A stretch of 64,000 bases of DNA from a virus: the IMG/VR virus record IMGVR_UViG_3300032236_001416, positions 3,696-67,695 of that record. One strand, 5' to 3'. Both the position numbers and the translations under genes were made by a program. Shown here in pieces: positions 1,437-32,619 of the stretch. Position 1 is the first letter of the stretch; each line of letters starts with the position of its first letter. A model generated the notes under the pieces. That model saw only the letters and a list, made by a program, of their open reading frames with translations, searched no databases and had not been told where the DNA came from.

Positions 1437-1445
1437 TTTAATTCC

Positions 1446-5547: not shown

Positions 5548-5548
5548 A

Positions 5549-7246: not shown

Positions 7247-7248
7247 AA

Positions 7249-8181
7249 TTACCTTTTTTCTATATCAGCCACAATCGAATCAAATATTTCTTTAACTTCT
7301 GTTTCAGAGAAGTCCATTAGTGATTCATTCATCCTGTCTGCCATTACCGAATCTAATCCAGTAATACGAATAGGAGAATACTTCTTCACACCTTCTTTTT
7401 CCAAAACTTGAAAATAATCAGGATATGAAGTATTTATAGGGAACGTGGAACCATATATTACAGTACCTTTAGTGCCTACAGCTCTTGCCATATGTTGACC
7501 AACAGAATCAACACCGACAAAATAATCGGCAGCTTCAATTAAAGAAGCCCACATACGTAAATCGGCGTTTGGTACTTTAATTGATAAAGTATCTTCTGGT
7601 ATATTTAAATGTTGTTCACCAAAAAATATAACATTATATCTAGCGGCCAGTTTTTTTGTTAAGGACATGAATCCTTTTACACTTAAACTTCTAGTGGTTG
7701 TATCAAGTACATCTTTATTGTTTTGTGTAGGTTGTGCACCAGAACCAAAAGGTTGAAATATAATTGTTTTGGATTTTTTGCCAGCAGCTTTGGCTTCTTC
7801 GATTGTATTTTTAGCCCATAGTTTTTCACTCTTATTGAAAAACATTACAGGTGGACCTAAATCTGAATGGTCTTTTGTGTGATTGATTTCTTCATCAAAA
7901 GCTTCCGCAAGAGAAAGTTTTTGTAGGAAATACCCAGGATTTCGGTATGGTTCTGGTGAATGTATTACATCTGCTTTAGATATAACATTATCAAAAATAC
8001 CTTTTGTATCTAAACTGAATACTCGGTCTTGCAGTTCTGGAATACTCCACAACAATGAATCCCAAGCCGGTATTAAAATGTTCCAATCAGAATTTGGATT
8101 TAATCTTGCAAATTTAAGTAGTGCCGGTATGGCTGCAATGATTCTACCGGCACCACCATCAATGTAAAATATTTCTTTCAT
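7249..8181 (-). CDS. GT9-like (heptosyltransferase-type) GT-B glycosyltransferase
   Basis: IDGGAGR N-terminal loop, IFQPFGS, FVGVDSVGQHMARA; ATG at 8181 preferred over the track's TTG at 8187. Confidence 0.7.
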   Translation of the reverse strand: MKEIFYIDGGAGRIIAAIPALLKFARLNPNSDWNILIPAWDSLLWSIPELQDRVFSLDTKGIFDNVISKADVIHSPEPYRNPGYFLQKLSLAEAFDEEINHTKDHSDLGPPVMFFNKSEKLWAKNTIEEAKAAGKKSKTIIFQPFGSGAQPTQNNKDVLDTTTRSLSVKGFMSLTKKLAARYNVIFFGEQHLNIPEDTLSIKVPNADLRMWASLIEAADYFVGVDSVGQHMARAVGTKGTVIYGSTFPINTSYPDYFQVLEKEGVKKYSPIRITGLDSVMADRMNESLMDFSETEVKEIFDSIVADIEKR

Positions 8182-8233
8182 ATTCAAATCACTTTCAACT
8201 AAAAATTATATAACATTATATAGGTCACTTTTT

Positions 8234-20145: not shown

Positions 20146-23100
20146 GGTTTATTTAGTCCTTATCCTTGGATGATTGCAACTTGTACGTTTGCAGAATCAC
20201 CATCAAAACATATGTATCTCAACAACATTGATGATGTTCCAGGCAGAATTTTTGTTGTACTATTGTTGGTTGCATTTGTTTCTGTACATCCATGTGTAAA
20301 TGTTTTGTTTGTGTTATCTGTATTTGTCACCCAAACATCAACTTGTTTACCTGGGAAATAATTTGTAAATGAAATCGTTGCACCAATATTGTTGATTACT
20401 CTAATAACTGAATTTGCCGTGAAATCAATAACAACTGTTGATACATTTGTAAATGTACTTGGTGTACTTGAGAAACCTTTTTGTGCATACACTTGACCAG
20501 TTATTGTGACAGTATTGGAAGTGAATGTGGCAATTGATGTTCTTGTATTTGTTCCAATCGGTGTGGCAGACAATACAATACTAGCACCTCTGGTTGTATC
20601 GGTATAGTTTTCAATTGCGTAGATATCAACTGAAGCACCACCAGCATTTATTCCATAACCAGTTGTACCATATCCGTTACCAGAAAATCTGGCCAACATG
20701 TCACCGTTTTGTGCTGCTGTTGGATTCTGGTGTGTACCTCTTGCATGACGACCAATGAACGCTGCATAAGAACTTGTACCAGCAGAATCAACAACGAGTC
20801 TTGTTGGTACATTGTCTTTACCTGTTGCCTGTATTGTGTAACCATCAGATGTTGGTGGTTGTACATAGTATCCAGTAGAAGCAACAATATTAACTGCTGC
20901 AGAGTTAGCAATTGTTGTGGCAGTATTTACTCTGAAATAAGCTGCTGCAATATCATTAAACTCTGCTCTTTTTCCTGGTGCATTTGCAACTAGATTACCT
21001 GTAATTACGGTATCAGAAGCTTGTAATACAATATTACCTCTTGCACCAATCTGTTGAATAATTACATCTGCATTAGCATTAACACCATACATAGTTTGGT
21101 CTGAGAAACCTAGACCTGCTGTACCATTGAGTGGTGTACCTACTGGACCAAATTCAATCCATTGTGATGCTGAGTTAGAACTGATATACTTGTATTCGAT
21201 ACCACTAGATGAATCAATCCAAATATCATCTACATTAGGACTTGTTGGTGCTGTATCTTGTGAGTATACAGTCGCCTTGGAATTTGCTGAGGCAAATGCT
21301 GAGTTTGCTTGTGTGAATGCTGCATTAGCATATAATGCTGCTGAGTTAGCTATACCAAATGCAGAATTGGCGTATGAACCTGATGTGACAGCCTTAGAAT
21401 CTGCCGTATTTGCTGCTGTGAATGCCGAGTTAGCATAGTTTCCAGCAGTGACCGCTTTACCATCAGCAGTATTGGCTGTTAAGAAGGCAGAGTTAGCGTA
21501 TGAACCTGCTGTTACTGCTTTACCATCGGCTGTATTGGCTGCGGTGAATGCTGAGTTAGCATAAGAACCTGCTGTTACTGCTTTACCATCAGCAGTATTG
21601 GCTGCGGTAAATGCTGAGTTAGCATAATTTCCAGCAGTGACTGCCTTGCCGTCAGCTGTTGCTGCATTGGTAGTTGCTGTATTTGCTTGAGTGTATGCTG
21701 AATTAGCATATGAACCTGCTGTAACAGCTTTACCATCTGCTGTGGATGCATTGGTAGTTGCTGTATTTGCTTGTGTATAGGCAGAATTGGCATATAGACC
21801 AGCACTTAATGCTTTACTATCAGCAGTATTCGCTGCATTGAATGCTGAATTGGCTTCTAAGAAAGCACCATTGGCATATAATGATGCTGAATTAGCAGTA
21901 CCAAATGCTGAGTTAGCATATGAACCTGCTGTTACTGCTTTACCATCGGCTGTATTGGCTGCTAAGAAAGCGGCGTTAGCATAAAGCGCAGCAGAGTTAG
22001 CTGTACCAAAAGCAGAATTGGCGTATGTACCAGCCGTGACCGCTTTATCATCAGCAGTATTGGCTGCTAAGAAGGCCGAATTAGCATATGAACCAGCACT
22101 AACGGCTTTACTGTCTGCTGTATTAGCTGATGTGAAAGCTGAATTAGCATAACTTGCTGCAGAATTAGCAGTACCAAATGCAGAGTTTGCTTGTGTAAAG
22201 GCTGATGCTGAAGATGTTGATATTGAATTAGCAACATTAAATACAGAATTTGCTTGTACGAAGGCACCATTTGCATATAGTGCTGCAGAATTAGCAGTAC
22301 CAAATGCTGAGTTAGCATATGAACCAGCACTAACGGCTTTACTATCGGCCGTATTGGCTGCTGTGAAGGCAGAGTTAGCGTATGATGCAGCAGAATTTGC
22401 TTGGCCATAAGCAGAGTTAGCATAACTTGCTGCAGAATTAGCAGTACCAAATGCTGAGTTAGCATATGAACCTGCTGTTACTGCTTTACCATCAGCCGTA
22501 TTTGCTGCGGTGAAGGCTGAATTGGCATAACTTGATGCTGAGTTGGCAGTACCAAACGCTGCGTTAGCCTTTACAAATGCCGAGTTGGCATATGATGCAG
22601 CAGAGTTTGCTTGGCCAAATGATGCATTGGCCTGTAGGAAAGCACCATTAGCATATGAACCAGCACTAGTTGCTTTACTATCTGCTGTGTTAGCTGCTGT
22701 GAATGCTGAATTGGCATATGATGCAGCAGAATTTGCTTGGCCAAATGCAGAGTTAGCGTATGAACCTGCTGTTACTGCTTTACCATCAGCAGTATTGGCT
22801 GCGGTAAATGCTGAGTTAGCATAACTTGATGCTGAGTTAGCAGAATCAAAAGCAGAGTTAGCATATGAACCTGCTGTTACTGCTTTACCATCAGCAGTAT
22901 TAGCCGCTAAGAAAGCTGAGTTAGCATAAGATTCTGCTGATGAAGAGGCTATGTTACTATAATTTGTACCATCATTAGTAAATTGCCAAGATTTGTTTGC
23001 TTCACTCCACAGTAAAGAAGTATTTGTTTGACTACCACGATTGATTTCTATACCAGAATCTAATGTTGGTGTACCAGTTACATTGGAGTTTAATGTAATG

Positions 23101-24160
23101 ATATTATCTTCAACTCTTAAATTTTCAGTATTAGCATAGAAGGTTGTACCAGATACAGTTAAGTTTGCATTAATAACAACATCACCTGTGATTGTACCAC
23201 CAGATGAATTGAATTTACTATTGGCTGTTGAAAATGCTGAGTTAGCATATGAACCTGCTGAATTTGCTGCGGTGAAAGCTGAGTTAGCATATGAACCTGC
23301 TGAATTCGCTGCGGTGAATGCTGGTTCAATTTGTGGCGCAACATTATTTGCCGCTTCAAACGCTGCGTTTGCTTGTAAGAAAGCGGAGTTAGCATAACTT
23401 GCTGCTGAGTTGGCAGTACCAAATGCTGAGTTAGCATATGAACCAGTTGTATTTTGTGATTGATATGCTGCGTTTGCTTGTGTGTATAAACCAGATACTA
23501 ATCTTGATGTTGGTACTGTTGAAATACTTGTTGATGTAGTACTGTCACTTATTGAATTTGAAGATAGTATTTTTGAATATGCTGTAACTACATCACTATT
23601 AAATACATCATTAAATTCCCAACTCTTATTTGTTTCATTGAATCTGAGATAAGAATTGGCTGGAGTACCAGTAGGTGCACCATTAGCAGTTCTAAAACCA
23701 CCAAAATATATTGTTTGGTTTGGTGTTTCAGAACTTAAAACTAATGATGCTGTATTGTATATCTGTTGACCATTAACAACAAAATTTCCACCAACAGAGA
23801 AGTCGTGTATAGTTTCAATAGAATCAAATGAACCATGTCCTGTTACAGTCAATGATGAAAGTGTTTGAGCGCCACTTATAATATCATTTGCTATTAGATA
23901 TACTGTATTTGCTTGTACAAATGCCGCATTCGCATATGAACCAGCCGAATTAGCTGTTGTGAATGCCGCATTCGCATATGAACCAGCTGAATTTGCTGCT
24001 GTAAATGCCGAATTGGCATATGATGCAGCAGAGTTTGCTTGGCCAAATGATGCATTAGATTTTAAGAACGCTGAATTGGCATATGATGCAGCAGAGTTTG
24101 CTTGGCCAAATGATGCATTTGCTTGTGAAAAAGAAGCATTTGCTGTACCAGAAATTTGTT
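16590..24160 (-). repeat. Coding 21/42-nt Ala/Asn heptad repeat arrays shared by two fibre genes
   Basis: For example GCATATGAACCTGCTGTTACTGCTTTACCATC recurs near 17921, 21916, 22462 and 22861; related units at 33800-34210. Confidence 0.85.
20150..20157 (-). promoter_or_regulatory. T4-like late promoter ACTAAATA
   Basis: 4 nt upstream of ATG 20145. Confidence 0.6.
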
Positions 24161-24731
24161 TTATATCTAAAGTTGAACCATCAGAATTAACGACAGATAA
24201 AGAACCACCTGTATTACCTAATGTAATTCCGTCAATATTAATGGAACCTGGACCAACATATAAAGAATGCCAAACTTTGTCTATACTACCCAAATAATAA
24301 GTGTTACTTGTTGTTGGTATGACATTCGCCGTCATCAACAAGTCACCAGTCATTGTACCACCTGATTTAGGTACTGCGTTGTTTGCTACACCAAAGGCCG
24401 AGTTTGCCTGAATAAAGGAAGCATTTGATGTAATGAAGGCGGCATTAGCTTGAGTGAATGAACCATTAGCTTGTGTAAAAGAACTATTGGCCTGAATAAA
24501 AGAAGAATTTGCATAGGATCCAGCAGATGTTTCACCCGTTGTAGCTGTATTAGCGGCATCAAAAGCTGCCTGTGCAAAGTCTTGAGTTGCCAGATAATGA
24601 CCACCCTGCGTAACACCGTCTTGTAAAACAATCGTGTTTGCTTGGGTATCAGCAATAATTTCACCTACGGCTCCAGTAAACGCTGCAACTTGGGCCGTAT
24701 TACCTCTTCTGATTTGTAATTGTGTTGACAT
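20160..24731 (-). CDS. 1523-aa tail fibre with an Mtd_N-like N-terminus and long Ala/Asn coiled-coil repeats
   Basis: MSTQLQIRRGNT...GEI...DGVTQGG N-terminal domain; ANSAGSYANSAF / TADGKAVT repeats; C-terminal beta-rich domain. Confidence 0.8.
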   Translation of the reverse strand: MSTQLQIRRGNTAQVAAFTGAVGEIIADTQANTIVLQDGVTQGGHYLATQDFAQAAFDAANTATTGETSAGSYANSSFIQANSSFTQANGSFTQANAAFITSNASFIQANSAFGVANNAVPKSGGTMTGDLLMTANVIPTTSNTYYLGSIDKVWHSLYVGPGSINIDGITLGNTGGSLSVVNSDGSTLDIKQISGTANASFSQANASFGQANSAASYANSAFLKSNASFGQANSAASYANSAFTAANSAGSYANAAFTTANSAGSYANAAFVQANTVYLIANDIISGAQTLSSLTVTGHGSFDSIETIHDFSVGGNFVVNGQQIYNTASLVLSSETPNQTIYFGGFRTANGAPTGTPANSYLRFNETNKSWEFNDVFNSDVVTAYSKILSSNSISDSTTSTSISTVPTSRLVSGLYTQANAAYQSQNTTGSYANSAFGTANSAASYANSAFLQANAAFEAANNVAPQIEPAFTAANSAGSYANSAFTAANSAGSYANSAFSTANSKFNSSGGTITGDVVINANLTVSGTTFYANTENLRVEDNIITLNSNVTGTPTLDSGIEINRGSQTNTSLLWSEANKSWQFTNDGTNYSNIASSSAESYANSAFLAANTADGKAVTAGSYANSAFDSANSASSYANSAFTAANTADGKAVTAGSYANSAFGQANSAASYANSAFTAANTADSKATSAGSYANGAFLQANASFGQANSAASYANSAFVKANAAFGTANSASSYANSAFTAANTADGKAVTAGSYANSAFGTANSAASYANSAYGQANSAASYANSAFTAANTADSKAVSAGSYANSAFGTANSAALYANGAFVQANSVFNVANSISTSSASAFTQANSAFGTANSAASYANSAFTSANTADSKAVSAGSYANSAFLAANTADDKAVTAGTYANSAFGTANSAALYANAAFLAANTADGKAVTAGSYANSAFGTANSASLYANGAFLEANSAFNAANTADSKALSAGLYANSAYTQANTATTNASTADGKAVTAGSYANSAYTQANTATTNAATADGKAVTAGNYANSAFTAANTADGKAVTAGSYANSAFTAANTADGKAVTAGSYANSAFLTANTADGKAVTAGNYANSAFTAANTADSKAVTSGSYANSAFGIANSAALYANAAFTQANSAFASANSKATVYSQDTAPTSPNVDDIWIDSSSGIEYKYISSNSASQWIEFGPVGTPLNGTAGLGFSDQTMYGVNANADVIIQQIGARGNIVLQASDTVITGNLVANAPGKRAEFNDIAAAYFRVNTATTIANSAAVNIVASTGYYVQPPTSDGYTIQATGKDNVPTRLVVDSAGTSSYAAFIGRHARGTHQNPTAAQNGDMLARFSGNGYGTTGYGINAGGASVDIYAIENYTDTTRGASIVLSATPIGTNTRTSIATFTSNTVTITGQVYAQKGFSSTPSTFTNVSTVVIDFTANSVIRVINNIGATISFTNYFPGKQVDVWVTNTDNTNKTFTHGCTETNATNNSTTKILPGTSSMLLRYICFDGDSANVQVAIIQG

Positions 24732-24757
24732 GTATGAATAATCCGTATACTATTTTT

Positions 24758-24765
24758 TATTTATG
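24758..24765 (-). promoter_or_regulatory. T4-like late promoter CATAAATA for the 1523-aa fibre
   Basis: At the gene boundary, 26 nt before the ATG. Confidence 0.5.
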
Positions 24766-25183
24766 CTAATGCACCACAATCAAATGTGGCCGGTGGAACA
24801 ACGGCATCATAAATATAACCCAAATCGATAAAAGGAAACCCGCCACCACCAGATGCTGTGTTGGCCATAGCGTAAGCTGCATTCGCCTGAATGAAAGCGG
24901 CATTTGCCGTACCTCTTGCATAATCATCTATTGCAGACGTAACACCAGTATTTGCTTTATCGAAGGCTGCCTGAGCGAGTATGTATGCACTGGTATTTGC
25001 TTGTGAAATCCAACCTCTTTGACCTGGATTCTCACTATTATAAATTAAAATATCACCATTATTTGCCGTACCCAAATTTGGTTCGGCAGAACTTAAATCC
25101 AGAAATTCATATCTACTAGACGAAACATTAGCCGAGTCGGTAACACCTACTCTTCCACTAATTAGTCTTGATTTATTTGTCAT
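24761..25183 (-). CDS. Small fibre-associated adaptor protein
   Basis: Short AFxxAN repeats; ends IDLGYI...FDCGALA; lies within the fibre block. Confidence 0.55.
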   Translation of the reverse strand: MTNKSRLISGRVGVTDSANVSSSRYEFLDLSSAEPNLGTANNGDILIYNSENPGQRGWISQANTSAYILAQAAFDKANTGVTSAIDDYARGTANAAFIQANAAYAMANTASGGGGFPFIDLGYIYDAVVPPATFDCGALA

Positions 25184-25189
25184 GGTTTA

Positions 25190-25537
25190 TTACTGATTTG
25201 CTGTTTCTAGATATGACAATATTAATTGACATTGACCATCAGTAGTTCCGCTAGTGGCCTGTATACTGAATGTATCACCTGTTTGTAATATTAATTTACC
25301 AGTCAACAAAGATATCGAATCGTTTTTTGGTACTGCAGCATTTTGGATGATAGCGGTATTTGTAGAATCTCTAACATGATTTGCTGTAACATAAATTGTT
25401 TCTGTATCAGTTATATTGGCAACTTGAGCCAACAAAACAACTGTTGTGACACCAGCTGGAGTGGTATATACATTTTCCTCTGTTGTTAGAATGTCAAAAG
25501 TTGTTGTCTTAAATGTATTTAATGGAATTTGTGCCAT
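25190..25537 (-). CDS. Small beta-rich virion/fibre-associated protein
   Basis: VYTTPAG...VLL..VAN...GKLILQTGD pattern, common in T4-like fibre regions. Confidence 0.55.
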   Translation of the reverse strand: MAQIPLNTFKTTTFDILTTEENVYTTPAGVTTVVLLAQVANITDTETIYVTANHVRDSTNTAIIQNAAVPKNDSISLLTGKLILQTGDTFSIQATSGTTDGQCQLILSYLETANQ

Positions 25538-25541
25538 TTTA

Positions 25542-27413
25542 TTAACCTTCTAGTGCCAATATGTAAGGAGTCATTTCGGCAAAAAGACTCTTTGTAAATG
25601 TTCTTCCGGTAATCGTTGATGATTCTTGATTAATAGTTAAATCAGAAACAGTAAAATTACCACTTTGGTCTGTCGCTGTAGCATATACCGCACCTTCACC
25701 TATCACAACAATTTGATTCTCAGAATTTGCCACACCACCTAATCTAGGTATGGCATGTATATCTGTACCTGCACCAACATATTCAAATGTTTGGCCGGAT
25801 GCTCTCAATTGACTTTGTTGATAGAATGATACACTCGTTCCGTCAATAATAGAATTTGCAATTGGATTATTAAATGTTACTGTTGTGGTTCCGCCAGTAA
25901 GTGGTGTTGCTGATGACACAGGATAATATCTACCTGGTTCATCACCATCAATTAACATAATTAATCCCGTATACGGAATTGTTGCTGATATACCCAAATC
26001 AGTATTTGCTACAACATTATTTAGGTCTATTGTATAAGATTGTTGATTGGTTGTATTAGCAACTTCAGCAGTCATTGCTAACTTACCTTTACCATTAGCA
26101 ACTAATCCTTTGTTACCAAAATTAACATTACAGTTGCCCATAGACGCCGTACCACCTGATTCGGCCAAGAATCCTATGTCACAGAAGATACTATACATGG
26201 AAACTAACTGAGAGTAACCATCATTCAAAATGTGTATACCTATACCACCAGAATTGACCTGGGTAAATTGAGCAGATATCATACTCTTGTTACCTGTGGC
26301 CAAGTCGCCATCAACTTTGATGCCTGTTCCAGTAGTTGTTACAGATGAACTGTTGTAGATGTATGGACTTCCTGTGATGTAGGTAGAATATCTTTTGCTT
26401 GCCGATGCTGGTACATCTCTACGTGGAATCTTTAATTCAAATACAGAAAATGTATTTGGTGTCACAGACCATGGAACATCAAGTGTGGCAATATTTGTAG
26501 AACCATCATATGCAATAACATTAGACGTTTGGCCAGAACCTGCACCCGATATAATACTTATAGACATACTATTATAATAGTTGTCATATGGTTCTGGATC
26601 AATATTGACTAACGACAATGTATGTGATGTTGGTACAGCAAAGTTACCTGTAGCGATTACACGATTTGGAAAAGCGATTGCTGAACCTGTGTAACTTTGG
26701 AATTTAAATCCTGTGACATAACTATTATTATTCATCCAGAAGATATCATTTGCCGATGTTTGTGGTTGTATGATACACGTTCTTTCACCTGAACCTTGTA
26801 CTTGTACATTCTGTGGAATAATAATAGGTGTTTTCTCTACATAGGTTCCAGATGTTACAACCACGGCATCACCTGGACTTGCTGCTGCGATGGCCGCTCT
26901 GATGGTTGCCTTGGCAGAACCTGGTGTATCACCCACTAGGTCATCGTTACCATTAGTTGAAACATAATAGGTTTTACCTACAGGTGTGGAAGATATGTCA
27001 ACAACTTTACCATTACCTAATTGAATGAACATACGTCCATCGTTTAGATTGATTACGGGTTCACCAGGAGTTGTTGTATCAGCAGGTAACACATAACCTG
27101 CTGTATTGACATGACTCAGTATTGGTTGTGAGTCAAACTTGATGGTTTTTGTGGTAGTGTTGGCTGTGATATTAACATTGTTTCCGGGAACAATTGATAA
27201 TATATCTGTAGGAGAACTTGCCAGTATGAGAGAACCGTTGGCATTAACGGTTGCAAAAGAATCTTGGTTATAGATGTATGATAAACCATCCACACCATTT
27301 TTATAATACAGTCTTCCATCGGCATAGTTTAAAGCAACCTCACCATGAACTAAATCTACTGGTGTGTTACCTGATACGCCTGATTTCTTTAACTGTATTG
27401 ATGTGTTTGACAT
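25542..27413 (-). CDS. Tail spike-like protein: IQLKKS N-terminal domain plus pectin-lyase-like beta-helix
   Basis: MSNTSIQLKKS...GEVALNYADGRLY; YYVSTNGND...ATIRAA...GDAVVVTSGTYVE entry into a right-handed beta-helix. Confidence 0.65.
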   Translation of the reverse strand: MSNTSIQLKKSGVSGNTPVDLVHGEVALNYADGRLYYKNGVDGLSYIYNQDSFATVNANGSLILASSPTDILSIVPGNNVNITANTTTKTIKFDSQPILSHVNTAGYVLPADTTTPGEPVINLNDGRMFIQLGNGKVVDISSTPVGKTYYVSTNGNDDLVGDTPGSAKATIRAAIAAASPGDAVVVTSGTYVEKTPIIIPQNVQVQGSGERTCIIQPQTSANDIFWMNNNSYVTGFKFQSYTGSAIAFPNRVIATGNFAVPTSHTLSLVNIDPEPYDNYYNSMSISIISGAGSGQTSNVIAYDGSTNIATLDVPWSVTPNTFSVFELKIPRRDVPASASKRYSTYITGSPYIYNSSSVTTTGTGIKVDGDLATGNKSMISAQFTQVNSGGIGIHILNDGYSQLVSMYSIFCDIGFLAESGGTASMGNCNVNFGNKGLVANGKGKLAMTAEVANTTNQQSYTIDLNNVVANTDLGISATIPYTGLIMLIDGDEPGRYYPVSSATPLTGGTTTVTFNNPIANSIIDGTSVSFYQQSQLRASGQTFEYVGAGTDIHAIPRLGGVANSENQIVVIGEGAVYATATDQSGNFTVSDLTINQESSTITGRTFTKSLFAEMTPYILALEG

Positions 27414-27417
27414 TTAC

Positions 27418-28128
27418 TTAAAAACTTCCGCCGTCCCTTGTTTCGTCTGCAAAAAGAGTTGCCTCTGGTTCAACTGTAATCATTTTTTCAATATTACTTT
27501 TCTTTCGCTTCACAGGAGTAGTAGGAATAGTTTTCAAGGTTTCAATCTGAGAATTCAAATCATCAATCGTGGCGTTCTTTTCTTCAACCACTTTTTGAAG
27601 TTCAACCAATTGTGTTCTAAAAGTATCCATATGACCTAATTGATGTTTCAATTTATCATATTCGGTACGAATCAAACCTGCTTTGGTAATCTCATCTCTC
27701 AAACCAACAATAGTTTTATTCAATTGTTCTATTTCAGAATTTTTAACTGATTGAACCTGCTGTAATTGTTCCGTATTCTTCTTAATAAGTTCATTCACAT
27801 CATTATTTTTAGTCGCTTGAGTCTGAGAAACTTGTTGCCTTAATTTTTCTATTTCATTATTTTTAGAAGCCTGTAAATCAACAAGTTGTTTCTTTAAACT
27901 TTCAATCTCACCATTTTTTGCAGATTCTTTCTCAGATAAAGATTTCTCTTTCTCCAATTTTAAAGATTTGTTTTCATCCAATAATGTTTGGTAACCTTTA
28001 GAGACTTCTTCAAAAATTTCAGCATTGACCTTTGCGTTGGCTTTTAGTGAAAGGTTTTGAAGAATCTGGTCATTAAATGTGGATGTCAACAACTCAACAT
28101 AATATGTACTATACTTTTCCTGACTCAT
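27418..28128 (-). CDS. Coiled-coil protein ending in DGGSF
   Basis: Heptad-rich, repeated KNxEIExL; SD AGGAG; C-terminus RDGGSF. Confidence 0.65.
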   Translation of the reverse strand: MSQEKYSTYYVELLTSTFNDQILQNLSLKANAKVNAEIFEEVSKGYQTLLDENKSLKLEKEKSLSEKESAKNGEIESLKKQLVDLQASKNNEIEKLRQQVSQTQATKNNDVNELIKKNTEQLQQVQSVKNSEIEQLNKTIVGLRDEITKAGLIRTEYDKLKHQLGHMDTFRTQLVELQKVVEEKNATIDDLNSQIETLKTIPTTPVKRKKSNIEKMITVEPEATLFADETRDGGSF

Positions 28129-28169
28129 CTCAAACTCCTATTATTAATACATTATATATAATCTCTATT

Positions 28170-28394
28170 TTAAGCTTCTGGATCACTTAACGATGCTGTA
28201 ATTGCTCGAGATATTTTGTATTCATATTGTAAAATATTATCATCATCAGATTCACGGAGTGTTGCCTTCTGGCTTTCATAATCCGTTTTGATTGATTGCA
28301 TTGAAGATACAAACTCAGCAAAAGTAATCGAATTGTCTCTTAACTGAGACATTAAGTTTTCAGCCGATGTTGCTAATTGTTGTGCGGTTGCCAT
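28170..28394 (-). CDS. 74-aa helical protein with a SHOCT-like motif, paralog of 31582..31806
   Basis: SD AAGGA; LATSAENL...NSITFAEF..SMQS. Confidence 0.6.
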   Translation of the reverse strand: MATAQQLATSAENLMSQLRDNSITFAEFVSSMQSIKTDYESQKATLRESDDDNILQYEYKISRAITASLSDPEA

Positions 28395-28419
28395 TTTATT
28401 TTCCTTTTATTGTTGATAA

Positions 28420-31400
28420 TTAGAATGAACCACCATCCAATGCATAAGAATATCTAATTTCTTTTGTATCGGAGTTGAAGAACATCAAACCATCGTATGT
28501 ATTATCTTGTGTTTCTGTGTAACGAATTGGATTAACATAGAAACCAGCATAAGCAGGATTTAATCCACCAGTAAGAGTTAAATCGGCATTAAGTGCAATA
28601 CTTCCTGAAGCCTGATTAGTTTTACCAGCACGGACACCGATAGCGATTGCACCAGCACCTTGACTATTGTTACCAGCTTGGTCACCGATTGCAACAGAGT
28701 GTTGATTTTGTTGATAATTACCAGCGTTATAACCAATTGCAACAGATTTTAGTCCTTGGTCTGTATAACCAGTATAAGTACCAATTGCAACAGAGTCAGT
28801 AGATTGACCTGTATAAGCAGATTGATAACCAATTGCAACAGACCTTGCACTTTGATTTTGGCTACCAGCTGAATTACCAACTGCAACAGCATTTGCACGT
28901 TGATAATAACTACCAGCGTTGGAACCTAAAGCAACAGCGTAGTATCCTTGATATGTTTCACCAGCAGCATTACCGACTGCGGTAGCATAATTGCTTTGAT
29001 GGTCATAACCAGAGTTAATACCAACTGCAACAGCACTAGTGCCTTGATAAACTTGACCAGCATAAACACCCATAGCTGTTGAATATTCACCCTGATAGGT
29101 ACGACCAGCACGGCGACCAACAGCAACTGATTGATAACCTTGATGGTCATTACCAGCAGCAAAACCTACTGCAACAGAACTACCATCTTGGTTGTATTCA
29201 GCGGCAGCATGACCGATAGCAACAGAGTTTGTTCCTTGGTATGTATAACCAGCATTATAACCTACAGCAGTAGCAAAGTAGTTTTGATTTGAATTACCAG
29301 CACTATGACCGACTGCAACTGAATCATAATTCTGATTTAAATTACCAGCGCCTTCGCCGATTGCAACAGAACCACTATTTTGATTTGAACCAGCAGCATC
29401 AATACCGATTGCAACACGACCATAATTACTATTTCCATAATCTATATTGTTACCAAGTAGAACACTATTTGCTGAGCAAGCAAGTGCTGTACCCAAATCG
29501 GAATATATTGCACCTGTATCGGCCGAAACAGTCCATGTATGTGAACCGTTAGCAATTGAATTTCCTGTTGGTACCAAGTCACTAAATGCACCAAATGTGA
29601 TTTCGTGTGTAGCAACATTATAGAAGGCGATGTTTGCAGTTTCACCATAATTGAGTGAGTCAACAAACAAACCAGCTTCACCATCAGAGATGACTGTGCC
29701 GTTTGCTAATGTGATACCAGAGTTATTGATATTTACATCTGTATAAACAACTTCTTTGGTTGTTATATTGTAAGTAGTAACATTACCGCCGATTGCATTG
29801 TTAGCACGGATTGGATCAATATACAGACCAGCATCTTGACTACCATCCAATTCGTCACCAGAAGCATTCAGAACAATAGAATTGTCATGTTGATTATATT
29901 CACCTGCGTATTCACCGATTGCGATAGAGTTTGTACCTTGTTGGTAATTACCAGCGTAACGACCAATAGCAACTGCTTTAGTACTTTGTTCATATCCACC
30001 AGCAAATCTACCGATAGCAACGGCAGCTTGGCCTTGTGAAGTTTGACCAGCAGAAGCACCAATTGCAACAGCAACAGAACTTTGATTGTATTGACCAGCG
30101 TGATGGCCTAAAGCAGTACCTGCCCAACCTTGTGAAGTGTTACCTGCTTGGTCACCAACGGCAACTGCATAAGCGGATTGATTACCACCACCAGCAGAAT
30201 CACCAATCGCAACTGCGTGGTCGCCTTGATAATCTACACCAGCACCCCAACCCATGGCAACAGAGTAATCACCTTGAGATACACGACCTGCTCTACGACC
30301 AACGGCAACTGAATCCCAACCTTGTGTTTGTTGACCAGCCCAACGGCCGATAGCTACACCACTAAATGACTGGTTTGTTTCACCAGCACCAGCACCGATT
30401 GCAACTGCGGATAAATCTTGTTGATAGTTACCAGCATGTGCGCCAATAGAAACCGAGTTGCCTGATTGTTGATAGTTACCAGCAAGTTTACCGATAGCGA
30501 TAGCATTGTAATTTTGTGATTCATTACCAGCATAATAACCAACAGCAATTGCACTATCACCTTGATTAGTTTCACCGGCATATCTACCGAATGAATAATT
30601 ATTGAGTTCGTTATTAGCATTTAAAACTTTATCACCGTAGACACTCAAATAAATGTCTGTATCATTTACATCAGAGAATAAACCAGTTGTTGTATAGGTA
30701 TTAAAAGCGAAACCGCCTGTATAACCCATGTCAGCCGCATAGAACTGTTTAGCATACAACGTGGCGCCGTTGGCAGACAAAGCACTTTGTGTAATGATAT
30801 TAGATGTTAAGTTTTCTTGGTCACCCAGAGCAATATTATCAAACAGATAATAGTCTGATGTACCAGCATTACGAACCAAACCGGTTACAACTGTACCATC
30901 AGTACCCTCGTGTTTGCCGTAGAAACCGATATCAAGTACGTCACCAATTGTGTTATTAGCAGCAAGTTCGATTAACGAATCATCTGTTTGATTGATTTGT
31001 GATTGTACATACGTTGTGGTACCTTGAACAGTCAAGTTACCAGAAATTTGGACGTCTGTGTTGATATGTTGTGAATCGCCTTCTGTATTCGCTCGAACAA
31101 CAGTAGTATCAACATCAAAAATTACTTCATTACCACTAATTGTGGTTGTGATACCAGAACCACCATTGAAAGTAAGTGTGTCTGTTAACAGATTGATAGT
31201 GTTTGGACCACCAGAATCACCATCAACAGTCAGGTTTGTAACAAGACCTGTAAGAGCAGAACCATCACCAATAAAGTAAGCAGCAGTAACATTACCTGCG
31301 GCAAAGTCACCATTACCATCTCTGATTACTAGTGTGTCTGGTGTATTGGCGGATGATGCTTGGTCAATAATATTGGTATAGTATTCACCACCAATTTTAT

Positions 31401-31542
31401 AGTAACCAGCACCTGTAGCAGTATTAGCACCAATAAACAGGGTATTGGATGCATATGAATATGCTAACTCACCTATATGTAAATTACCAGGTGTGGTATT
31501 TGCTAAGGAGCGTTTAATGAAGATTTGTGTATTGGATGCCAT
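28420..31542 (-). CDS. 1040-aa acidic fibre/adhesin with 15-aa Q-x3-(S/A)VA(I/V)GxxAG YadA-head-like repeats
   Basis: N-term IFIKRS...GELAYS..SNTLFIG; two blocks of 15-mer repeats; ends YALDGGSF. Confidence 0.8.
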   Translation of the reverse strand: MASNTQIFIKRSLANTTPGNLHIGELAYSYASNTLFIGANTATGAGYYKIGGEYYTNIIDQASSANTPDTLVIRDGNGDFAAGNVTAAYFIGDGSALTGLVTNLTVDGDSGGPNTINLLTDTLTFNGGSGITTTISGNEVIFDVDTTVVRANTEGDSQHINTDVQISGNLTVQGTTTYVQSQINQTDDSLIELAANNTIGDVLDIGFYGKHEGTDGTVVTGLVRNAGTSDYYLFDNIALGDQENLTSNIITQSALSANGATLYAKQFYAADMGYTGGFAFNTYTTTGLFSDVNDTDIYLSVYGDKVLNANNELNNYSFGRYAGETNQGDSAIAVGYYAGNESQNYNAIAIGKLAGNYQQSGNSVSIGAHAGNYQQDLSAVAIGAGAGETNQSFSGVAIGRWAGQQTQGWDSVAVGRRAGRVSQGDYSVAMGWGAGVDYQGDHAVAIGDSAGGGNQSAYAVAVGDQAGNTSQGWAGTALGHHAGQYNQSSVAVAIGASAGQTSQGQAAVAIGRFAGGYEQSTKAVAIGRYAGNYQQGTNSIAIGEYAGEYNQHDNSIVLNASGDELDGSQDAGLYIDPIRANNAIGGNVTTYNITTKEVVYTDVNINNSGITLANGTVISDGEAGLFVDSLNYGETANIAFYNVATHEITFGAFSDLVPTGNSIANGSHTWTVSADTGAIYSDLGTALACSANSVLLGNNIDYGNSNYGRVAIGIDAAGSNQNSGSVAIGEGAGNLNQNYDSVAVGHSAGNSNQNYFATAVGYNAGYTYQGTNSVAIGHAAAEYNQDGSSVAVGFAAGNDHQGYQSVAVGRRAGRTYQGEYSTAMGVYAGQVYQGTSAVAVGINSGYDHQSNYATAVGNAAGETYQGYYAVALGSNAGSYYQRANAVAVGNSAGSQNQSARSVAIGYQSAYTGQSTDSVAIGTYTGYTDQGLKSVAIGYNAGNYQQNQHSVAIGDQAGNNSQGAGAIAIGVRAGKTNQASGSIALNADLTLTGGLNPAYAGFYVNPIRYTETQDNTYDGLMFFNSDTKEIRYSYALDGGSF

Positions 31543-31581
31543 TTTCTACCCTTATTATTATTATTTTGTAGATTTTTGTTA

Positions 31582-31806
31582 TTAGTCTGGAGCGCCGACC
31601 ATTGCGACAGCATTACAGATTGTGTGCCATGCATCGTCATTCTTGCTACTCTTATTCAAACCAGCCACCTGAGGAACAACTTGTGAATTCATAGAATCTT
31701 TGAATTGTTGCAAAGTGATTGATTTGGCTTCGTATTGGTCAACCAATGACTTGGCTGTTGTAGCTAAAACAACCATTGGATCTGATGGATTATGAGCGTA
31801 TGTCAT
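31582..31806 (-). CDS. 74-aa helical protein with a SHOCT-like motif, paralog of 28170..28394
   Basis: SD AAGGG; LATTAKSL...KSITLQQF..SMNS. Confidence 0.6.
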   Translation of the reverse strand: MTYAHNPSDPMVVLATTAKSLVDQYEAKSITLQQFKDSMNSQVVPQVAGLNKSSKNDDAWHTICNAVAMVGAPD

Positions 31807-31845
31807 TTTTAGTCCCTTTTATTATTATCGTTATTCTTCTATTTA

Positions 31846-32040
31846 TTAAAAACTGCCACCGTCAATTGGATTAATTACATTAGCAATATAACCCTCACCA
31901 GCAATAGCGATTATCCCATTAGCATTGTTACCAATATATAGTGTGTTTGACGTAAATGAATATGCCATTTCACCATCATGTAGTGTGTTTGGTGCATCAT
32001 TATTATAAGAACGGAGAATCTGAATAGTAGTATTTGCCAT
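31846..32040 (-). CDS. 64-aa minimal adaptor: IQILRS domain plus DGGSF tail
   Basis: MANTTIQILRS...GEMAYSFTSNTLYIG...IDGGSF, homologous to the N-terminus of 28420..31542. Confidence 0.65.
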   Translation of the reverse strand: MANTTIQILRSYNNDAPNTLHDGEMAYSFTSNTLYIGNNANGIIAIAGEGYIANVINPIDGGSF

Positions 32041-32264
32041 CAGAAAAATCCTCCATCTACATCATTTATAACTGGAGTAACTGGAGCTACATAAAAGTTA
32101 TTATTCGCAGAATTATAGACAATTACATCACCCGTGTTTGCACCAAGATATTGTAAATCGGTAGAACTTTTTAATGATTTAATACCATAAGCAATATTAC
32201 GGACCGTTGGTCCTAATTGATTACCAACTTGGACTTTAATGGTATTAATTGGATTTGCTGGCAT
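32040..32264 (-). CDS. 74-aa fibre-associated protein ending in DGGFF
   Basis: LKSSTDL...GDVIVYNS motif, C-terminal DVDGGFF; TGATG overlap with the next gene. Confidence 0.6.
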   Translation of the reverse strand: MPANPINTIKVQVGNQLGPTVRNIAYGIKSLKSSTDLQYLGANTGDVIVYNSANNNFYVAPVTPVINDVDGGFF

Positions 32265-32271
32265 TTATGAC

Positions 32272-32619
32272 CTAAAATACAGTAACTTGTGGTATAACGT
32301 TAATAATACCCTCTAAAACTCTAGTTACAGTATTTCCTGATGTGGTATCTTTAATTACCACATCGTATACATAACGTCCTGGTGTAATATTAACTGTATT
32401 TGCTGAAGGTATATTCAAACTGATAATACCTGATGTTGGATCTTGTATAGTTATGTTGAAATGTTCAGTTTCGTTTTTGGAATAATATGATTTCCTAATT
32501 TGACTTTTGGCTAAACAACCAGTCAAATCATAGGCGTCACCATTCACATCATCTAAAGTGATTGATGTGTTAAAATCTGTACCTTGTTCAAGGAAGAGTT
32601 CTGTGTATGCGGCCGACAT
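32272..32619 (-). CDS. Ig-like virion adaptor (BppU_N-like)
   Basis: LEQGTDF, YDLTG..AKSQIRK, PGRYVYDV, RVLEG...PQVT. Confidence 0.6.
   Translation of the reverse strand: MSAAYTELFLEQGTDFNTSITLDDVNGDAYDLTGCLAKSQIRKSYYSKNETEHFNITIQDPTSGIISLNIPSANTVNITPGRYVYDVVIKDTTSGNTVTRVLEGIINVIPQVTVF

What the first reader, a model, noticed from the sequence alone, without database searches (positions are those of the whole stretch)
24731..32264. Plug-and-socket fibre assembly code: C-terminal DGGxF tails paired with N-terminal IQxKRS/LQxRRG domains
Seen: four otherwise dissimilar proteins end in the same motif: DVDGGFF (32040..32264), IDGGSF (31846..32040), LDGGSF (28420..31542) and RDGGSF (27418..28128). 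Three genes begin with one small domain: IQILRS..GEMAYS, IFIKRS..GELAYS and IQLKKS..GEVALN. Each of these follows a DGGxF gene directly or after one 74-aa spacer gene. The 64-aa gene is nothing but this domain plus DGGSF. A second pair appears at the 140-aa gene (tail IDLGYI...FDCGAL), which directly precedes the LQIRRG (Mtd_N-like) fibre. Inference: the DxGxF/L tail is a docking peptide bound by the Mtd_N-like domain of the next protein. Gene order would then encode a daisy-chained or branched fibre tree, with the 64-aa protein as a self-polymerising extender.
Basis: partly seen in the sequence, partly recalled or inferred. Interest (0 to 1): 0.8.

Follow-up and report, generated by a model that had tools for sequence, protein, structure and literature searches.

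The report
Tail-peptide and head-cap joints between phage fibres
In this marine T4-like phage, each fibre protein ends in a short peptide and the next gene starts with a matching cap, which probably clips the proteins end to end into modular fibres; binding is predicted, not measured.

Summary
On the minus strand, four proteins end in D-G-G-x-F. Three begin with an IQxK(R/K)S...GE(L/M/V)A head and lie directly, or one 74-aa gene, downstream of such a tail. The 140-aa protein ends in D-x-G-x-L and precedes a true Mtd_N fibre.

The pattern is far beyond chance and is conserved. In 150 dereplicated loci:
- neighbour pairs: DGGxF tail to IQxKRS head 124, DxGxL tail to QxRRG head 46, crossed 3 and 0
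- head and tail types within one protein are not associated
- no head lies inside a protein

The same pairs occur in cultured phages: bbp9 to mtd in BPP-1, and in HTVC008M, P-HM1, Mosig, S-TIP37 and Minorna.

A 3+3 complex model of the 74-aa and 64-aa proteins scored ipSAE 0.78 against 0.00 for the best control. Its interface is the tail (residues 66, 68-74) on the head's first strand (residues 3-12).

Best reading: a C-terminal peptide and N-terminal cap connector joins trimeric fibre segments in gene order, in two mostly orthogonal types. A linear chain accounts for the genes. Branching and self-polymerisation of the 64-aa protein are untested. Binding is predicted only. My seven paper searches found no description of this joint. 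It is a new variant of known multi-protein fibre assembly.

The parts
32272..32619 (-). 115-aa Ig-like protein directly upstream of the first root protein; candidate anchor (collar-like) for the fibre chain
   Evidence: PHROG phrog_1084 and phrog_3304 'L-shaped tail fiber protein assembly' (E 1.8e-21). The AlphaFold2 model has pLDDT 84.8. Best Foldseek PDB matches are chains of the T5 tail tip (7qg9_L/J) and the DT57C baseplate (8hqz_T/Q), E about 1e-8, TMq 0.72-0.76. The gene is conserved before the root gene in related loci and in HTVC008M, P-HM1, Mosig and DC31.
32040..32264 (-). 74-aa 'root' protein: no head, a GDVIVYNS-type domain and a type-1 tail DVDGGFF (tail codons about 32043-32063)
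   Evidence: The family alignment A1 has 17 rows, all ending in x-[GA]-G-x-[FY]. In the complex model, residues 66 and 68-74 form the interface with the 64-aa head.
31846..32040 (-). 64-aa adaptor: type-1 head (IQILRS..GEMAYS) plus type-1 tail (IDGGSF) and little else
   Evidence: Pfam Mtd_N 18.8 bits, below the cut-off. Homologues of 64-78 aa occupy the same position in related loci. Head residues 3-12, 14, 17-18, 21 and 26 contact the upstream tail in the model.
31582..31806 (-). 74-aa 'spacer' gene A, function unknown, paralogue of spacer B
   Evidence: Pairwise BLASTP E 1e-5 against 28170-28394. No Pfam or PHROG family. Present only in the window's close clade and in L036-type loci; absent in L003-L010.
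28420..31542 (-). 1040-aa fibre: type-1 head (IFIKRS..GELAYS), repeat-rich shaft, type-1 tail (LDGGSF)
   Evidence: phrog_4636 tail spike (E 1.3e-22). tblastn matches 'chlorovirus glyco repeat' proteins of Tenacibaculum phages.
28170..28394 (-). 74-aa 'spacer' gene B
27418..28128 (-). 236-aa coiled-coil-like protein: conserved N-terminus (candidate third acceptor), type-1 tail RDGGSF
   Evidence: Only weak Pfam hits, to coiled-coil families. In the head-seeded scan, 37 of 68 distinct 'type-1 tail not followed by a type-1 head' cases are a fibre followed by this protein family. That family itself nearly always ends in DGG[ST]F and precedes an LQLKKSG-type head.
25542..27413 (-). 623-aa distal tailspike: type-1 head (IQLKKS..GEVALN), pectate-lyase-like body, no tail (ends LALEG)
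   Evidence: Pfam Pect-lyase_RHGA_epim 27.1 bits against a cut-off of 27. phrog_17885 tail fiber, E 6.6e-75. In L003-L010 its homologue is split into a 163-186-aa protein (type-1 head plus type-2 tail) and a roughly 600-690-aa protein with a QxRRG head.
25190..25537 (-). 115-aa jelly-roll protein directly upstream of the second root protein
   Evidence: phrog_1276. Model pLDDT 85.9. Foldseek gives only weak matches to jelly-roll oligomers (7a02_A E 4.5e-4; phage cement protein 7dou_4, TMq 0.60). It always lies between the ..LALEG tailspike gene and the second root gene.
24761..25183 (-). 140-aa second 'root' protein: GDILIYNS-type domain and a tandem type-2 tail (IDLGYI ... FDCGALA)
   Evidence: phrog_8745 tail fiber, N-terminal 100 residues (E 1.1e-8). 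It shares the root motif with the 74-aa protein (E 5e-4). The tandem D-x-G-x-hydrophobic motif is seen in 35 of 51 type-2 tails.
20160..24731 (-). 1523-aa fibre with a type-2 head, a true Mtd_N domain (LQIRRG..GEI), and no tail
   Evidence: Pfam Mtd_N 28.2 bits against a cut-off of 26.3, residues 6-41. Its first 45 residues match BPP-1 Mtd at 59% identity (E 5e-8). The head profile finds PDB 1yu0-1yu4 and 2iou (E 9e-20).

Best explanation
The region encodes two multi-protein tail fibres whose segments are joined non-covalently, end to end, by a short connector.

The connector has two halves. The last 6-8 residues of the proximal protein form the 'tail'. The first 40 or so residues of the next protein form the 'head', a small trimeric cap related or analogous to Mtd_N.

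In the model, each tail strand pairs in parallel with the first strand of a head (..TIQILRS). It lies at the seam between head subunits. Its terminal Phe sits in a pocket lined by conserved head residues.

Two mostly orthogonal connector types exist:
- Type 1: hydrophobic-D-G-G-x-F-COOH, paired with (M)xNTxIQIKRS...P..L..GELA.
- Type 2: D-(Y/L/F/C)-G-x-(L/I), often in tandem, paired with QxRRG(N/T)T...FTGA..E, which is Mtd_N proper.

Gene order equals assembly order, from proximal to distal:
- Chain 1: 74-aa root, 64-aa adaptor, 1040-aa fibre, (probably) 236-aa coiled coil, 623-aa lyase tailspike.
- Chain 2: 140-aa root, 1523-aa Mtd_N fibre.

Each root gene follows a small beta-sandwich protein that may anchor it on the baseplate.

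What is shown: the motifs, their terminal positions, the adjacency and type specificity across about 150 loci and several cultured phages, and a confident interface in a model.

What is inferred: real binding, 3:3 stoichiometry, the role of the coiled-coil N-terminus as a third acceptor, the anchoring role of the 115-aa proteins, and any salt bridges from the head's Lys/Arg to the tail Asp or the terminal carboxylate.
For: 1. Motifs are terminal and non-random. 46 of 55 D[GA]Gx[FY] occurrences lie at C-termini, against 0.16 expected. No internal head was found in the first 37 loci or in 150 dereplicated loci. 132 of 143 type-1 tails end exactly on the aromatic residue, and 137 of 143 on Phe.

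2. Adjacency. 143 of 156 distinct genes with a type-1 head have an upstream neighbour with a type-1 tail. For type 2 the figure is 51 of 71. A head-seeded scan of IMG/VR gave 89 type-1 tails plus 6 DSGFF among 100 distinct pairs.

3. Specificity. Between neighbours: T1 to H1 124, T1 to H2 3, T2 to H1 0, T2 to H2 46 (Fisher p 8e-39, not corrected for relatedness). Within one protein, head and tail types are independent: 78, 20, 2 and 1, p 0.5.

4. Gene-order shuffles within loci. Matched pairs 185 against 48.3 +/- 5.5 (maximum 66 of 1000); crossed pairs 3 against 10.5.

5. Grammar is kept through module changes.
- The 623-aa tailspike is split in L003-L010 into a piece with an H1 head and a T2 tail and a piece with an H2 head.
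- In L013-L017 and L022 the root is followed directly by the tailspike.
- Roots have tails but no heads. Distal enzymes have heads but no tails.

6. Cultured phages of several morphotypes.
- T2 to H2 in BPP-1 (bbp9 to mtd), S-TIP37, CRP-3, Ep4, Minorna (two in series), Vibrio phage 1.185.O and HTVC008M.
- T1 to H1 in P-HM1, Mosig, Vibrio phage 1.293.O, S-CBS2 and DC31.

7. Mtd is reported to sit at the ends of BPP-1 tail fibres (PMC2408619, Introduction passage).

8. Complex model of the 74-aa protein (3 copies) with the 64-aa protein (3 copies).
- ipSAE 0.80, 0.78 and 0.78; best of 3 controls 0.00.
- In the tool's calibration the mark was reached by 58 of 80 solved complexes and 2 of 110 mismatched pairs.
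- The runs agree in at least 90% of contacts, and partner pLDDT is at least 84.
- The interface is tail residues 66 and 68-74 with head residues 3-12, 14, 17-18, 21 and 26. Pairs 69-7, 71-9 and 73-11 indicate parallel strand pairing.
- Three of the six invariant head residues (S11, P17, A26) lie in this interface.

9. No like complex is solved. The H2 profile finds only Mtd alone or Mtd with pertactin. The H1 profile finds nothing real. The model is therefore unlikely to be a memory of a known structure.
Against: - No binding has been measured, and only one pair could be modelled. Cognate versus swapped pairs and the type-2 pair were not tested.
- The other chains in the model have only moderate confidence (pLDDT 66-67).
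- The loci are related to one another, so the counts and p-values overstate the number of independent events. Conserved synteny alone can keep neighbours together.
- Exceptions exist. There are 3 T1-to-H2 neighbour pairs. 20 of 71 H2 heads have no canonical tail upstream. Among the 20 H2-seeded loci that the regex missed, 13 showed no tail gene by eye. S-CAM3, S-SSM7, K385 and Phosso are non-canonical.
- One type-1 tail per genome, on the long fibre, is followed not by a head but by the coiled-coil protein. Its acceptor role is only inferred.
- In tightly coupled genes the GG codons form GGAGG about 10 nt before the next ATG, so part of the conservation could serve translation.
- In BPP-1 two Mtd trimers per fibre are reported (PMC2408619 passage). 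That does not fit a simple coaxial 3:3 joint.
Confidence: 0.72

Rival explanations
1. Heads and tails are independent end-caps. The tail closes or nucleates each protein's own trimer, and the head attaches each protein separately to the baseplate or caps its own N-terminus. Neighbour adjacency would then reflect only the clustering and conserved synteny of fibre genes.
For: Fibre genes are clustered and many loci are related, so synteny is inherited. Terminal trimerisation elements are common in fibres (my own knowledge). Some H2 heads have no tail gene upstream.
Against: - The tail type predicts the head type of the NEXT protein (124/3/0/46) but not the head type of its own protein (78/20/2/1).
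- Shuffling gene order within loci, even among module genes only, gives 105 +/- 6.5 matched pairs against 196 observed.
- Roots lack heads and distal proteins lack tails.
- The model puts the tail on the partner's head, with zero-scoring controls.
Confidence: 0.12
2. The tails are tags read by a common third party, either a fibre-assembly chaperone or one shared site on the baseplate (hub and spokes), rather than by the next protein's head.
For: Four different proteins carry nearly the same tail. Two small genes of unknown function (the 74-aa spacers) lie in the cluster. One type-1 tail per genome has no head gene after it.
Against: - This does not explain why a matching head follows in 143 of 156 and 51 of 71 cases, nor the existence of two orthogonal pairs.
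- The spacers are absent from most loci that keep the motifs.
- The model interface is tail to head.
Confidence: 0.08
3. The C-terminal DGG is a by-product of a Shine-Dalgarno sequence (GGAGG) for the tightly coupled downstream gene. On this view it is not a protein motif.
For: In overlapping or 0-5-nt-spaced pairs the codons read GGAGG or GGCGGA about 9-11 nt before the next ATG. Examples are the window's 74-aa gene, L013-L017 and L022-L023.
Against: - The motif persists before 19-70-nt intergenic gaps that carry their own purine-rich sites.
- The Gly codons vary synonymously (GGC GGA 11, GGT GGA 8, GGT GGT 4, GGC GGT 4 and others), and DAG variants lack the site.
- Asp and the terminal Phe are conserved with both of their codons.
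- It cannot explain the type-2 tails or the type specificity.
Confidence: 0.02

Closest known systems
Bordetella phage BPP-1 major tropism determinant Mtd (Pfam PF18454 Mtd_N; PDB 1YU0) at the tip of the tail fibre
   Same: The 1523-aa fibre's head is a true Mtd_N. It passes the Pfam cut-off, is 59% identical to Mtd residues 1-44, and its profile reaches E 9e-20 to 1yu0. Mtd is reported to localise to the ends of tail fibres (PMC2408619 passage). In BPP-1 the upstream gene bbp9 ends ..ADLGGIA, a type-2-like tail.
   Different: I found no solved structure and no paper that describes how Mtd_N is held. Here the same kind of joint is used serially, in two types, and the type-1 heads do not pass Pfam Mtd_N.
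Anchor-branch receptor-binding-protein systems of Klebsiella podophages KP32/K11/KP34 and of G7C (T4gp10-like branching domain plus N-terminal 'conserved peptide')
   Same: A conserved N-terminal docking element on a second RBP is needed to mount it on a first RBP, and the modules can be exchanged. This was modelled in PMC6872550 (passages read) and is reported as experimentally validated in PMC13352976 (abstract read).
   Different: In those systems the socket is an internal T4gp10-like domain of RBP1 and the plug is the N-terminal peptide of RBP2, giving lateral branching. Here the plug is the extreme C-terminal peptide of the proximal protein and the socket is the N-terminal cap of the distal one, giving end-to-end joining. 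The motifs are unrelated (MALxxLV in the KP34 group). No gp10-named family was hit in the window's proteins.
Phage T4 long tail fibre, gp34-gp35-gp36-gp37 (from my own knowledge, not from a call)
   Same: A fibre is built serially from separate gene products encoded in assembly order.
   Different: As far as I recall, each T4 joint is unique. Here one short, portable motif pair is reused at successive joints and in unrelated phages.
T5 / DT57C tail-tip collar protein that carries the L-shaped or lateral fibres
   Same: The 115-aa protein before the first root has the same Ig-like fold as chains 7qg9_L/J and 8hqz_T/Q (E about 1e-8, TMq 0.72-0.76). It also matches PHROG 'L-shaped tail fiber protein assembly'.
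   Different: Sequence identity is only 16-20%. That those chains are the collar protein (p132 or its DT57C counterpart) is my recollection, not stated in the tool output. The host virion here is a T4-like myovirus.

Membership tests
Pfam PF18454 Mtd_N | Score at or above the curated gathering cut-off (26.3 bits): the type-2 head of the 1523-aa protein | tested here: met
   28.2 bits, E 1.7e-6, residues 6-41. The profile of nine such heads finds Mtd in the PDB at E 9e-20.
Pfam PF18454 Mtd_N | Score at or above the curated cut-off: the type-1 heads (64-aa, 1040-aa and 623-aa proteins) | tested here: not met
   The 64-aa protein scores 18.8 bits (E 0.0015), below the cut-off. The 1040-aa and 623-aa proteins give no hit at E <= 0.1. 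hhalign of type-1 against type-2 head profiles gives E 0.077 and probability below 1%, although the alignment is in register. The type-1 head may work like Mtd_N but is not shown to be a member.
Anchor-branch RBP system (T4gp10-like branching domain plus N-terminal conserved peptide) | A T4gp10-like branching domain in the upstream (anchor) protein | tested here: inconclusive
   No Pfam or PHROG hit named gp10 in the 74-, 64-, 236-, 140- or 1040-aa proteins. No HHpred-type search against T4 gp10 was run.
Anchor-branch RBP system | Experimentally shown dependence of RBP2 incorporation on the docking element | not testable with these tools
   This needs phage genetics. Only a complex model is available.
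T5 p132-type collar / fibre-carrier protein | Ig-like fold matching the solved tail-tip chains | tested here: met
   Foldseek: 8hqz_T E 9.7e-9, TMq 0.76; 7qg9_L E 1.2e-8, TMq 0.72. Model pLDDT 84.8.
T5 p132-type collar / fibre-carrier protein | Ring around the tail tip that binds fibre N-termini | not testable with these tools
   No assembly model was made. The position in the virion is unknown.
Serial multi-protein tail fibre (T4 gp34-37 type) | Consecutive genes whose products join end to end | tested here: inconclusive
   Adjacency statistics and one modelled joint support it. No physical evidence exists.

The most novel reading that the evidence does not exclude
A small set of orthogonal connectors, each a terminal peptide plus an N-terminal cap, forms a portable assembly code for viral fibres.

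There would be at least two types: DGGxF with IQxKRS, and DxGxL with Mtd_N. A possible third acceptor is the N-terminus of the coiled-coil protein.

The code is used by myo-, podo- and siphoviruses of marine, freshwater, enteric and Bordetella hosts. Unchecked notes of this scan also report it in giant viruses.

Gene order would spell the proximal-to-distal order of segments. Modules could be inserted, split or swapped without breaking the fibre.

The tandem type-2 motif (two D-x-G-x-hydrophobic elements per chain) would be a built-in branch point. That would explain the two Mtd trimers reported per BPP-1 fibre.
Probability: 0.45. Interest if true: 0.8.

Novelty: new variant of a known kind. 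Interest (0 to 1): 0.66.

Why it matters
If the joint is real, it gives a simple sequence rule for reading the architecture of tail fibres from a genome: which proteins are roots, adaptors, shafts and distal receptor-binding enzymes, and in what order. That would apply to the many uncultured marine phages whose fibre genes are otherwise 'hypothetical'.

It would also explain how fibre modules are exchanged, split and inserted during evolution without loss of assembly.

It would provide the missing attachment mechanism for Mtd_N, the cap of the BPP-1 tropism determinant and of many annotated tail fibres.

Finally, it would offer a compact natural connector pair to compare with the anchor-branch systems already used to study host range in laboratory phages.

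Tried and rejected
- tblastn of the whole 64-aa and 74-aa proteins against cultured phages found nothing at E <= 1. Searches with 50-residue heads did find relatives.
A narrower alignment, A4, worked.
- The PDB search with the type-1 head profile gave only designed beta-propeller 'Cake' proteins through a repeated short stretch. I regard these as spurious.
- The Shine-Dalgarno explanation was considered and rejected as the main cause.
- I suspected that the 78-aa adaptor had been lost in L011/L012, which would have been a natural 'module deletion'. A direct read showed that the gene is present and that my greedy gene caller had taken an antisense ORF. I make no such claim, and the adjacency counts are slightly conservative.
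- A search for natural fusions (a tail followed by a head inside one protein) found none. No monomer fold could therefore stand in for the joint.
- Sequence searches of the two 115-aa proteins against the PDB found nothing. Only the fold search was informative, and only for the first one.
- Cognate-versus-swapped models, the type-2 pair, the joint between the 1040-aa tail and the coiled coil, and self-association of the 64-aa protein could not be modelled. Only one complex job was available.
- Supplementary files of the papers could not be seen. The WebLogos and domain borders of the Klebsiella 'conserved peptides' are in supplements and might bear on how different those peptides are.

Full report
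**Context.** The window is most of a 67.7-kb contig of an uncultured marine T4-like myovirus.
- PHROG matches identify baseplate genes: gp5-, gp25-, gp6-, gp7- and gp8-like, gp48/53-like and a VrlC-like 2113-aa protein.
- The gp6-like protein is about 40% identical to those of Pelagibacter phages HTVC008M and Mosig and of Methylophilales phage Melnitz.
- Downstream of the baseplate genes, all on the minus strand, lies a long row of fibre genes. The finding covers its middle part.

**Observation.** In transcription order the genes are:

| Coordinates | Product | Features |
|---|---|---|
| 32272-32619 | 115 aa | Ig-like |
| 32040-32264 | 74 aa | ends DVDGGFF |
| 31846-32040 | 64 aa | IQILRS..GEMAYS head, ends IDGGSF |
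| 31582-31806 | 74 aa | spacer A |
| 28420-31542 | 1040 aa | IFIKRS..GELAYS head, ends LDGGSF |
| 28170-28394 | 74 aa | spacer B |
| 27418-28128 | 236 aa | coiled-coil-like, ends RDGGSF |
| 25542-27413 | 623 aa | IQLKKS..GEVALN head, pectate-lyase-like, no tail |
| 25190-25537 | 115 aa | jelly roll |
| 24761-25183 | 140 aa | ends IDLGYI..FDCGALA |
| 20160-24731 | 1523 aa | LQIRRG head |

From composition, the expected number of window genes ending exactly in DGGxF is 0.0008 of 49, against 4 observed.

Only the 1523-aa head passes Pfam Mtd_N (28.2 bits, cut-off 26.3). The 64-aa head scores 18.8 bits, and the other two give no hit. I call the DGGxF-type tails T1 and the IQxKRS heads H1. The D-x-G-x-L tails are T2 and the QxRRG (Mtd_N) heads are H2.

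**Conservation.** Thirty-six IMG/VR loci were seeded with the 623-aa and 74-aa proteins.
- In 27 representative loci, including the window and HTVC008M, the next-gene table was: T1 to H1 32, T2 to H2 12, T1 to H2 0, T2 to H1 0, T1 to neither 16, neither to H1 10, T2 to neither 2, neither to H2 1, neither to neither 323.
- D[GA]Gx[FY] lies within four residues of a C-terminus in 46 of 55 occurrences, against 0.16 expected among 476 genes.

Seeding instead with the heads gave independent samples.
- The pattern GE[LM]AYS[FY]xS found 291 relatives, of which 80 loci were kept. Among 100 distinct head/upstream pairs, 89 had a T1 tail, 6 had DSGFF, 4 had something else and 1 was at a contig edge.
- The H2 head found more than 581 relatives, of which 80 loci were kept. 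Among 49 distinct pairs found by regex, 35 had a T2 tail, 1 a T1 tail, 10 something else and 3 none.
- In the 20 loci the regex missed, inspection by eye showed 6 more T2 tails, 1 odd tail and 13 without a tail gene.

**Pooled statistics.** I pooled all 213 loci and kept 150 after removing those sharing 30% or more of their 15-mers.
- Between neighbours: T1 to H1 124, T1 to H2 3, T2 to H1 0, T2 to H2 46.
- Within single proteins that have both a head and a tail: H1+T1 78, H1+T2 20, H2+T1 2, H2+T2 1, with no association.
- No head motif lies more than 40 residues inside any protein.
- Shuffling gene order within loci 1000 times gave 48.3 +/- 5.5 matched pairs (maximum 66) against 185 observed.
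- Restricting the shuffle to genes that carry a head or a tail gave 105 +/- 6.5 against 196.
- 132 of 143 T1 tails end exactly on the aromatic residue. 35 of 51 T2 tails carry the motif twice, as in the window's 140-aa protein.

These loci are related to one another. The numbers therefore describe a conserved rule, not that many independent events.

**Module changes that keep the grammar.**
- In L003-L010 the homologue of the 623-aa tailspike is split. One piece is a 163-186-aa protein with an H1 head and a T2 tail (..FDYGTL or ..KDFGYI). The other is a 590-690-aa protein with an H2 head.
- In L013-L017 and L022 the root protein is followed directly by the tailspike.
- Roots carry tails but no heads, and the distal enzymes carry heads but no tails.
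- In L027, L028 and L030 a VrlC-like protein ends in ..DGGxY, and the only H1 head without an upstream tail is the tailspike a few genes away. Tails and heads therefore balance there although they are not adjacent (three loci only).

**Cultured phages.** T2 to H2 occurs in:
- BPP-1 (bbp9 ..ADLGGIA, then mtd)
- the T7-like cyanophage S-TIP37
- roseophage CRP-3
- Pseudomonas phage Ep4
- coliphage Minorna (two joints in series)
- Vibrio phage 1.185.O
- HTVC008M

S-CAM3, S-SSM7, Vibrio phage K385 and Phosso are not canonical.

T1 to H1 occurs in Prochlorococcus phage P-HM1, Pelagibacter phage Mosig, Vibrio podophage 1.293.O (three tails in a row), Synechococcus siphophage S-CBS2 and Limnohabitans phage DC31.

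**Physical plausibility.** I modelled three copies of the 74-aa protein with three copies of the 64-aa protein, each with an alignment.
- ipSAE was 0.80, 0.78 and 0.78 in three runs, against 0.00 for the best of three controls.
- The tool's mark was reached by 58 of 80 solved complexes and 2 of 110 mismatched pairs in its calibration. These counts hold only roughly for this 3+3 job with my own alignments.
- The runs agree in at least 90% of contacts, and partner pLDDT is at least 84.
- The confident interface is residues 66 and 68-74 of the 74-aa protein (the tail) with residues 3-12, 14, 17-18, 21 and 26 of the 64-aa protein.
- The closest pairs (69-7, 71-9, 73-11) indicate parallel strand pairing. 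The terminal Phe touches residues 9-11, 14, 17, 18 and 26. Each tail also touches a second head subunit.
- Three of the six invariant head residues (S11, P17, A26) are in the interface.
- No comparable complex is in the PDB by sequence.

This supports binding but does not show it.

**Rivals.**
- A Shine-Dalgarno origin of the GG codons may contribute in overlapping genes. It fails for pairs separated by 19-70 nt, for the synonymous codon variation, for DAG variants and for T2 tails.
- Independent end-caps do not explain why the tail type predicts the neighbour's head type but not the head type of its own protein.
- A common chaperone or hub is not excluded for the one T1 tail per genome that is not followed by a head. 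However, in 37 of 68 distinct such cases the next gene is the coiled-coil protein with a conserved N-terminus. That protein itself ends in DGG[ST]F and precedes an H1 head. I therefore read it as a third acceptor and the whole as one linear chain.

Branching is not required by the gene content. Self-polymerisation of the 64-aa protein is untested and, I think, unlikely, because it would give fibres of uncontrolled length.

**Surroundings.**
- The 115-aa protein before the first root folds like chains of the T5 tail tip and the DT57C baseplate and matches PHROG 'L-shaped tail fiber protein assembly'. It is a plausible carrier for the root.
- The 115-aa protein before the second root is a jelly roll with only weak matches.
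- The two roots share a GD(V/I)(I/L)(V/I)YNS motif. The 140-aa root matches the first 100 residues of an 1803-position PHROG tail-fibre profile.

**Known systems and novelty.**
- Multi-protein fibres are textbook (T4 gp34-37, from my own knowledge).
- Docking of a second RBP through a conserved N-terminal peptide onto a T4gp10-like branching domain has been modelled (PMC6872550, passages read) and is reported as validated (PMC13352976, abstract read).
- Mtd is reported at fibre ends (PMC2408619, passages read).
- Seven full-text searches found no description of a C-terminal DGGxF or DxGxL peptide paired with an Mtd_N-type cap. The library lacks most subscription journals, and supplements were closed.
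- Earlier notes of this scan report the same tail-then-cap pairing in other genomes. They are unchecked AI notes that agree with this reading but are not independent evidence.

I rate this a new variant of a known kind, of moderate to high interest.

Noticed in passing
window 24761-25183 (last 25 residues); also L003, L011, L020, L206: The type-2 tail is usually doubled: two D-x-G-x-hydrophobic elements 10-17 residues apart, in 35 of 51 type-2 tails. With three chains per fibre this gives six elements. It might relate to the two Mtd trimers per fibre reported for BPP-1 (PMC2408619 passage).
   Followed up: partly
window 31582-31806 and 28170-28394: Two paralogous 74-aa genes (E 1e-5) flank the 1040-aa fibre gene. 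They have no family match and are absent from most related loci that keep the tail/head pairs. They may be fibre-specific assembly factors.
   Followed up: partly
window 25190-25537: A conserved 115-aa jelly-roll protein always lies between the ..LALEG tailspike gene and the second root gene. Its model has pLDDT 85.9. Fold matches are weak, to phage cement proteins, Bacillus Ena pilus subunits and nucleoplasmin cores.
   Followed up: partly
L027 4430-7381, L028 45-2576, L030 4383-7289, L031 5442-8369: In one clade the VrlC-like baseplate protein is split, and its C-terminal part ends in ..D[GA]Gx[FY] with 0-4 extra residues. The only type-1 head without an upstream tail in those loci is the big tailspike a few genes downstream. 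This suggests direct docking of the tailspike on a baseplate protein.
   Followed up: partly
L188 797-1350 and neighbours; L197: These loci hold rows of very small (67-116 aa) proteins, each with a head, in series. They include one of the three T1-to-H2 exceptions and tails of another kind (..AAGxLLN). This may be a further connector type.
   Followed up: no
L004, L009, L010, L011: intergenic region after the 595-658-aa fibre gene: A G+C-rich inverted repeat followed by its own purine-rich site lies in the 70-nt gap between the fibre gene and the coiled-coil gene (seen in the printout). It looks like a terminator or attenuator inside the fibre operon.
   Followed up: no
window 8234-16126 and 16165-20145: Two further giant fibre proteins (2630 and 1326 aa) follow the cluster. 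They have neither head nor tail motifs. The 2630-aa protein has 28 stretches matching phrog_4636 (tail spike), and the 1326-aa one has C-terminal matches to tail-fibre families. They must attach by another route.
   Followed up: no
window 609-8187: Directly downstream of the fibre genes lies a block that includes a Nol-like carbamoyltransferase (5549-7246, E 7.5e-156). Its unannotated neighbours look, by eye, like sugar-modifying enzymes. The block may be a host-takeover or glycan-modifying module.
   Followed up: no
L208 (P-HM1) 10179-10385; L065, L072, L061, L077: The coiled-coil protein's tail varies more than the others (..SPDDF..ENDDF..DDDF..SDTF..NDTF). It still ends in Phe and still precedes a type-1 head. 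The terminal Phe may therefore matter more than the Gly-Gly.
   Followed up: no
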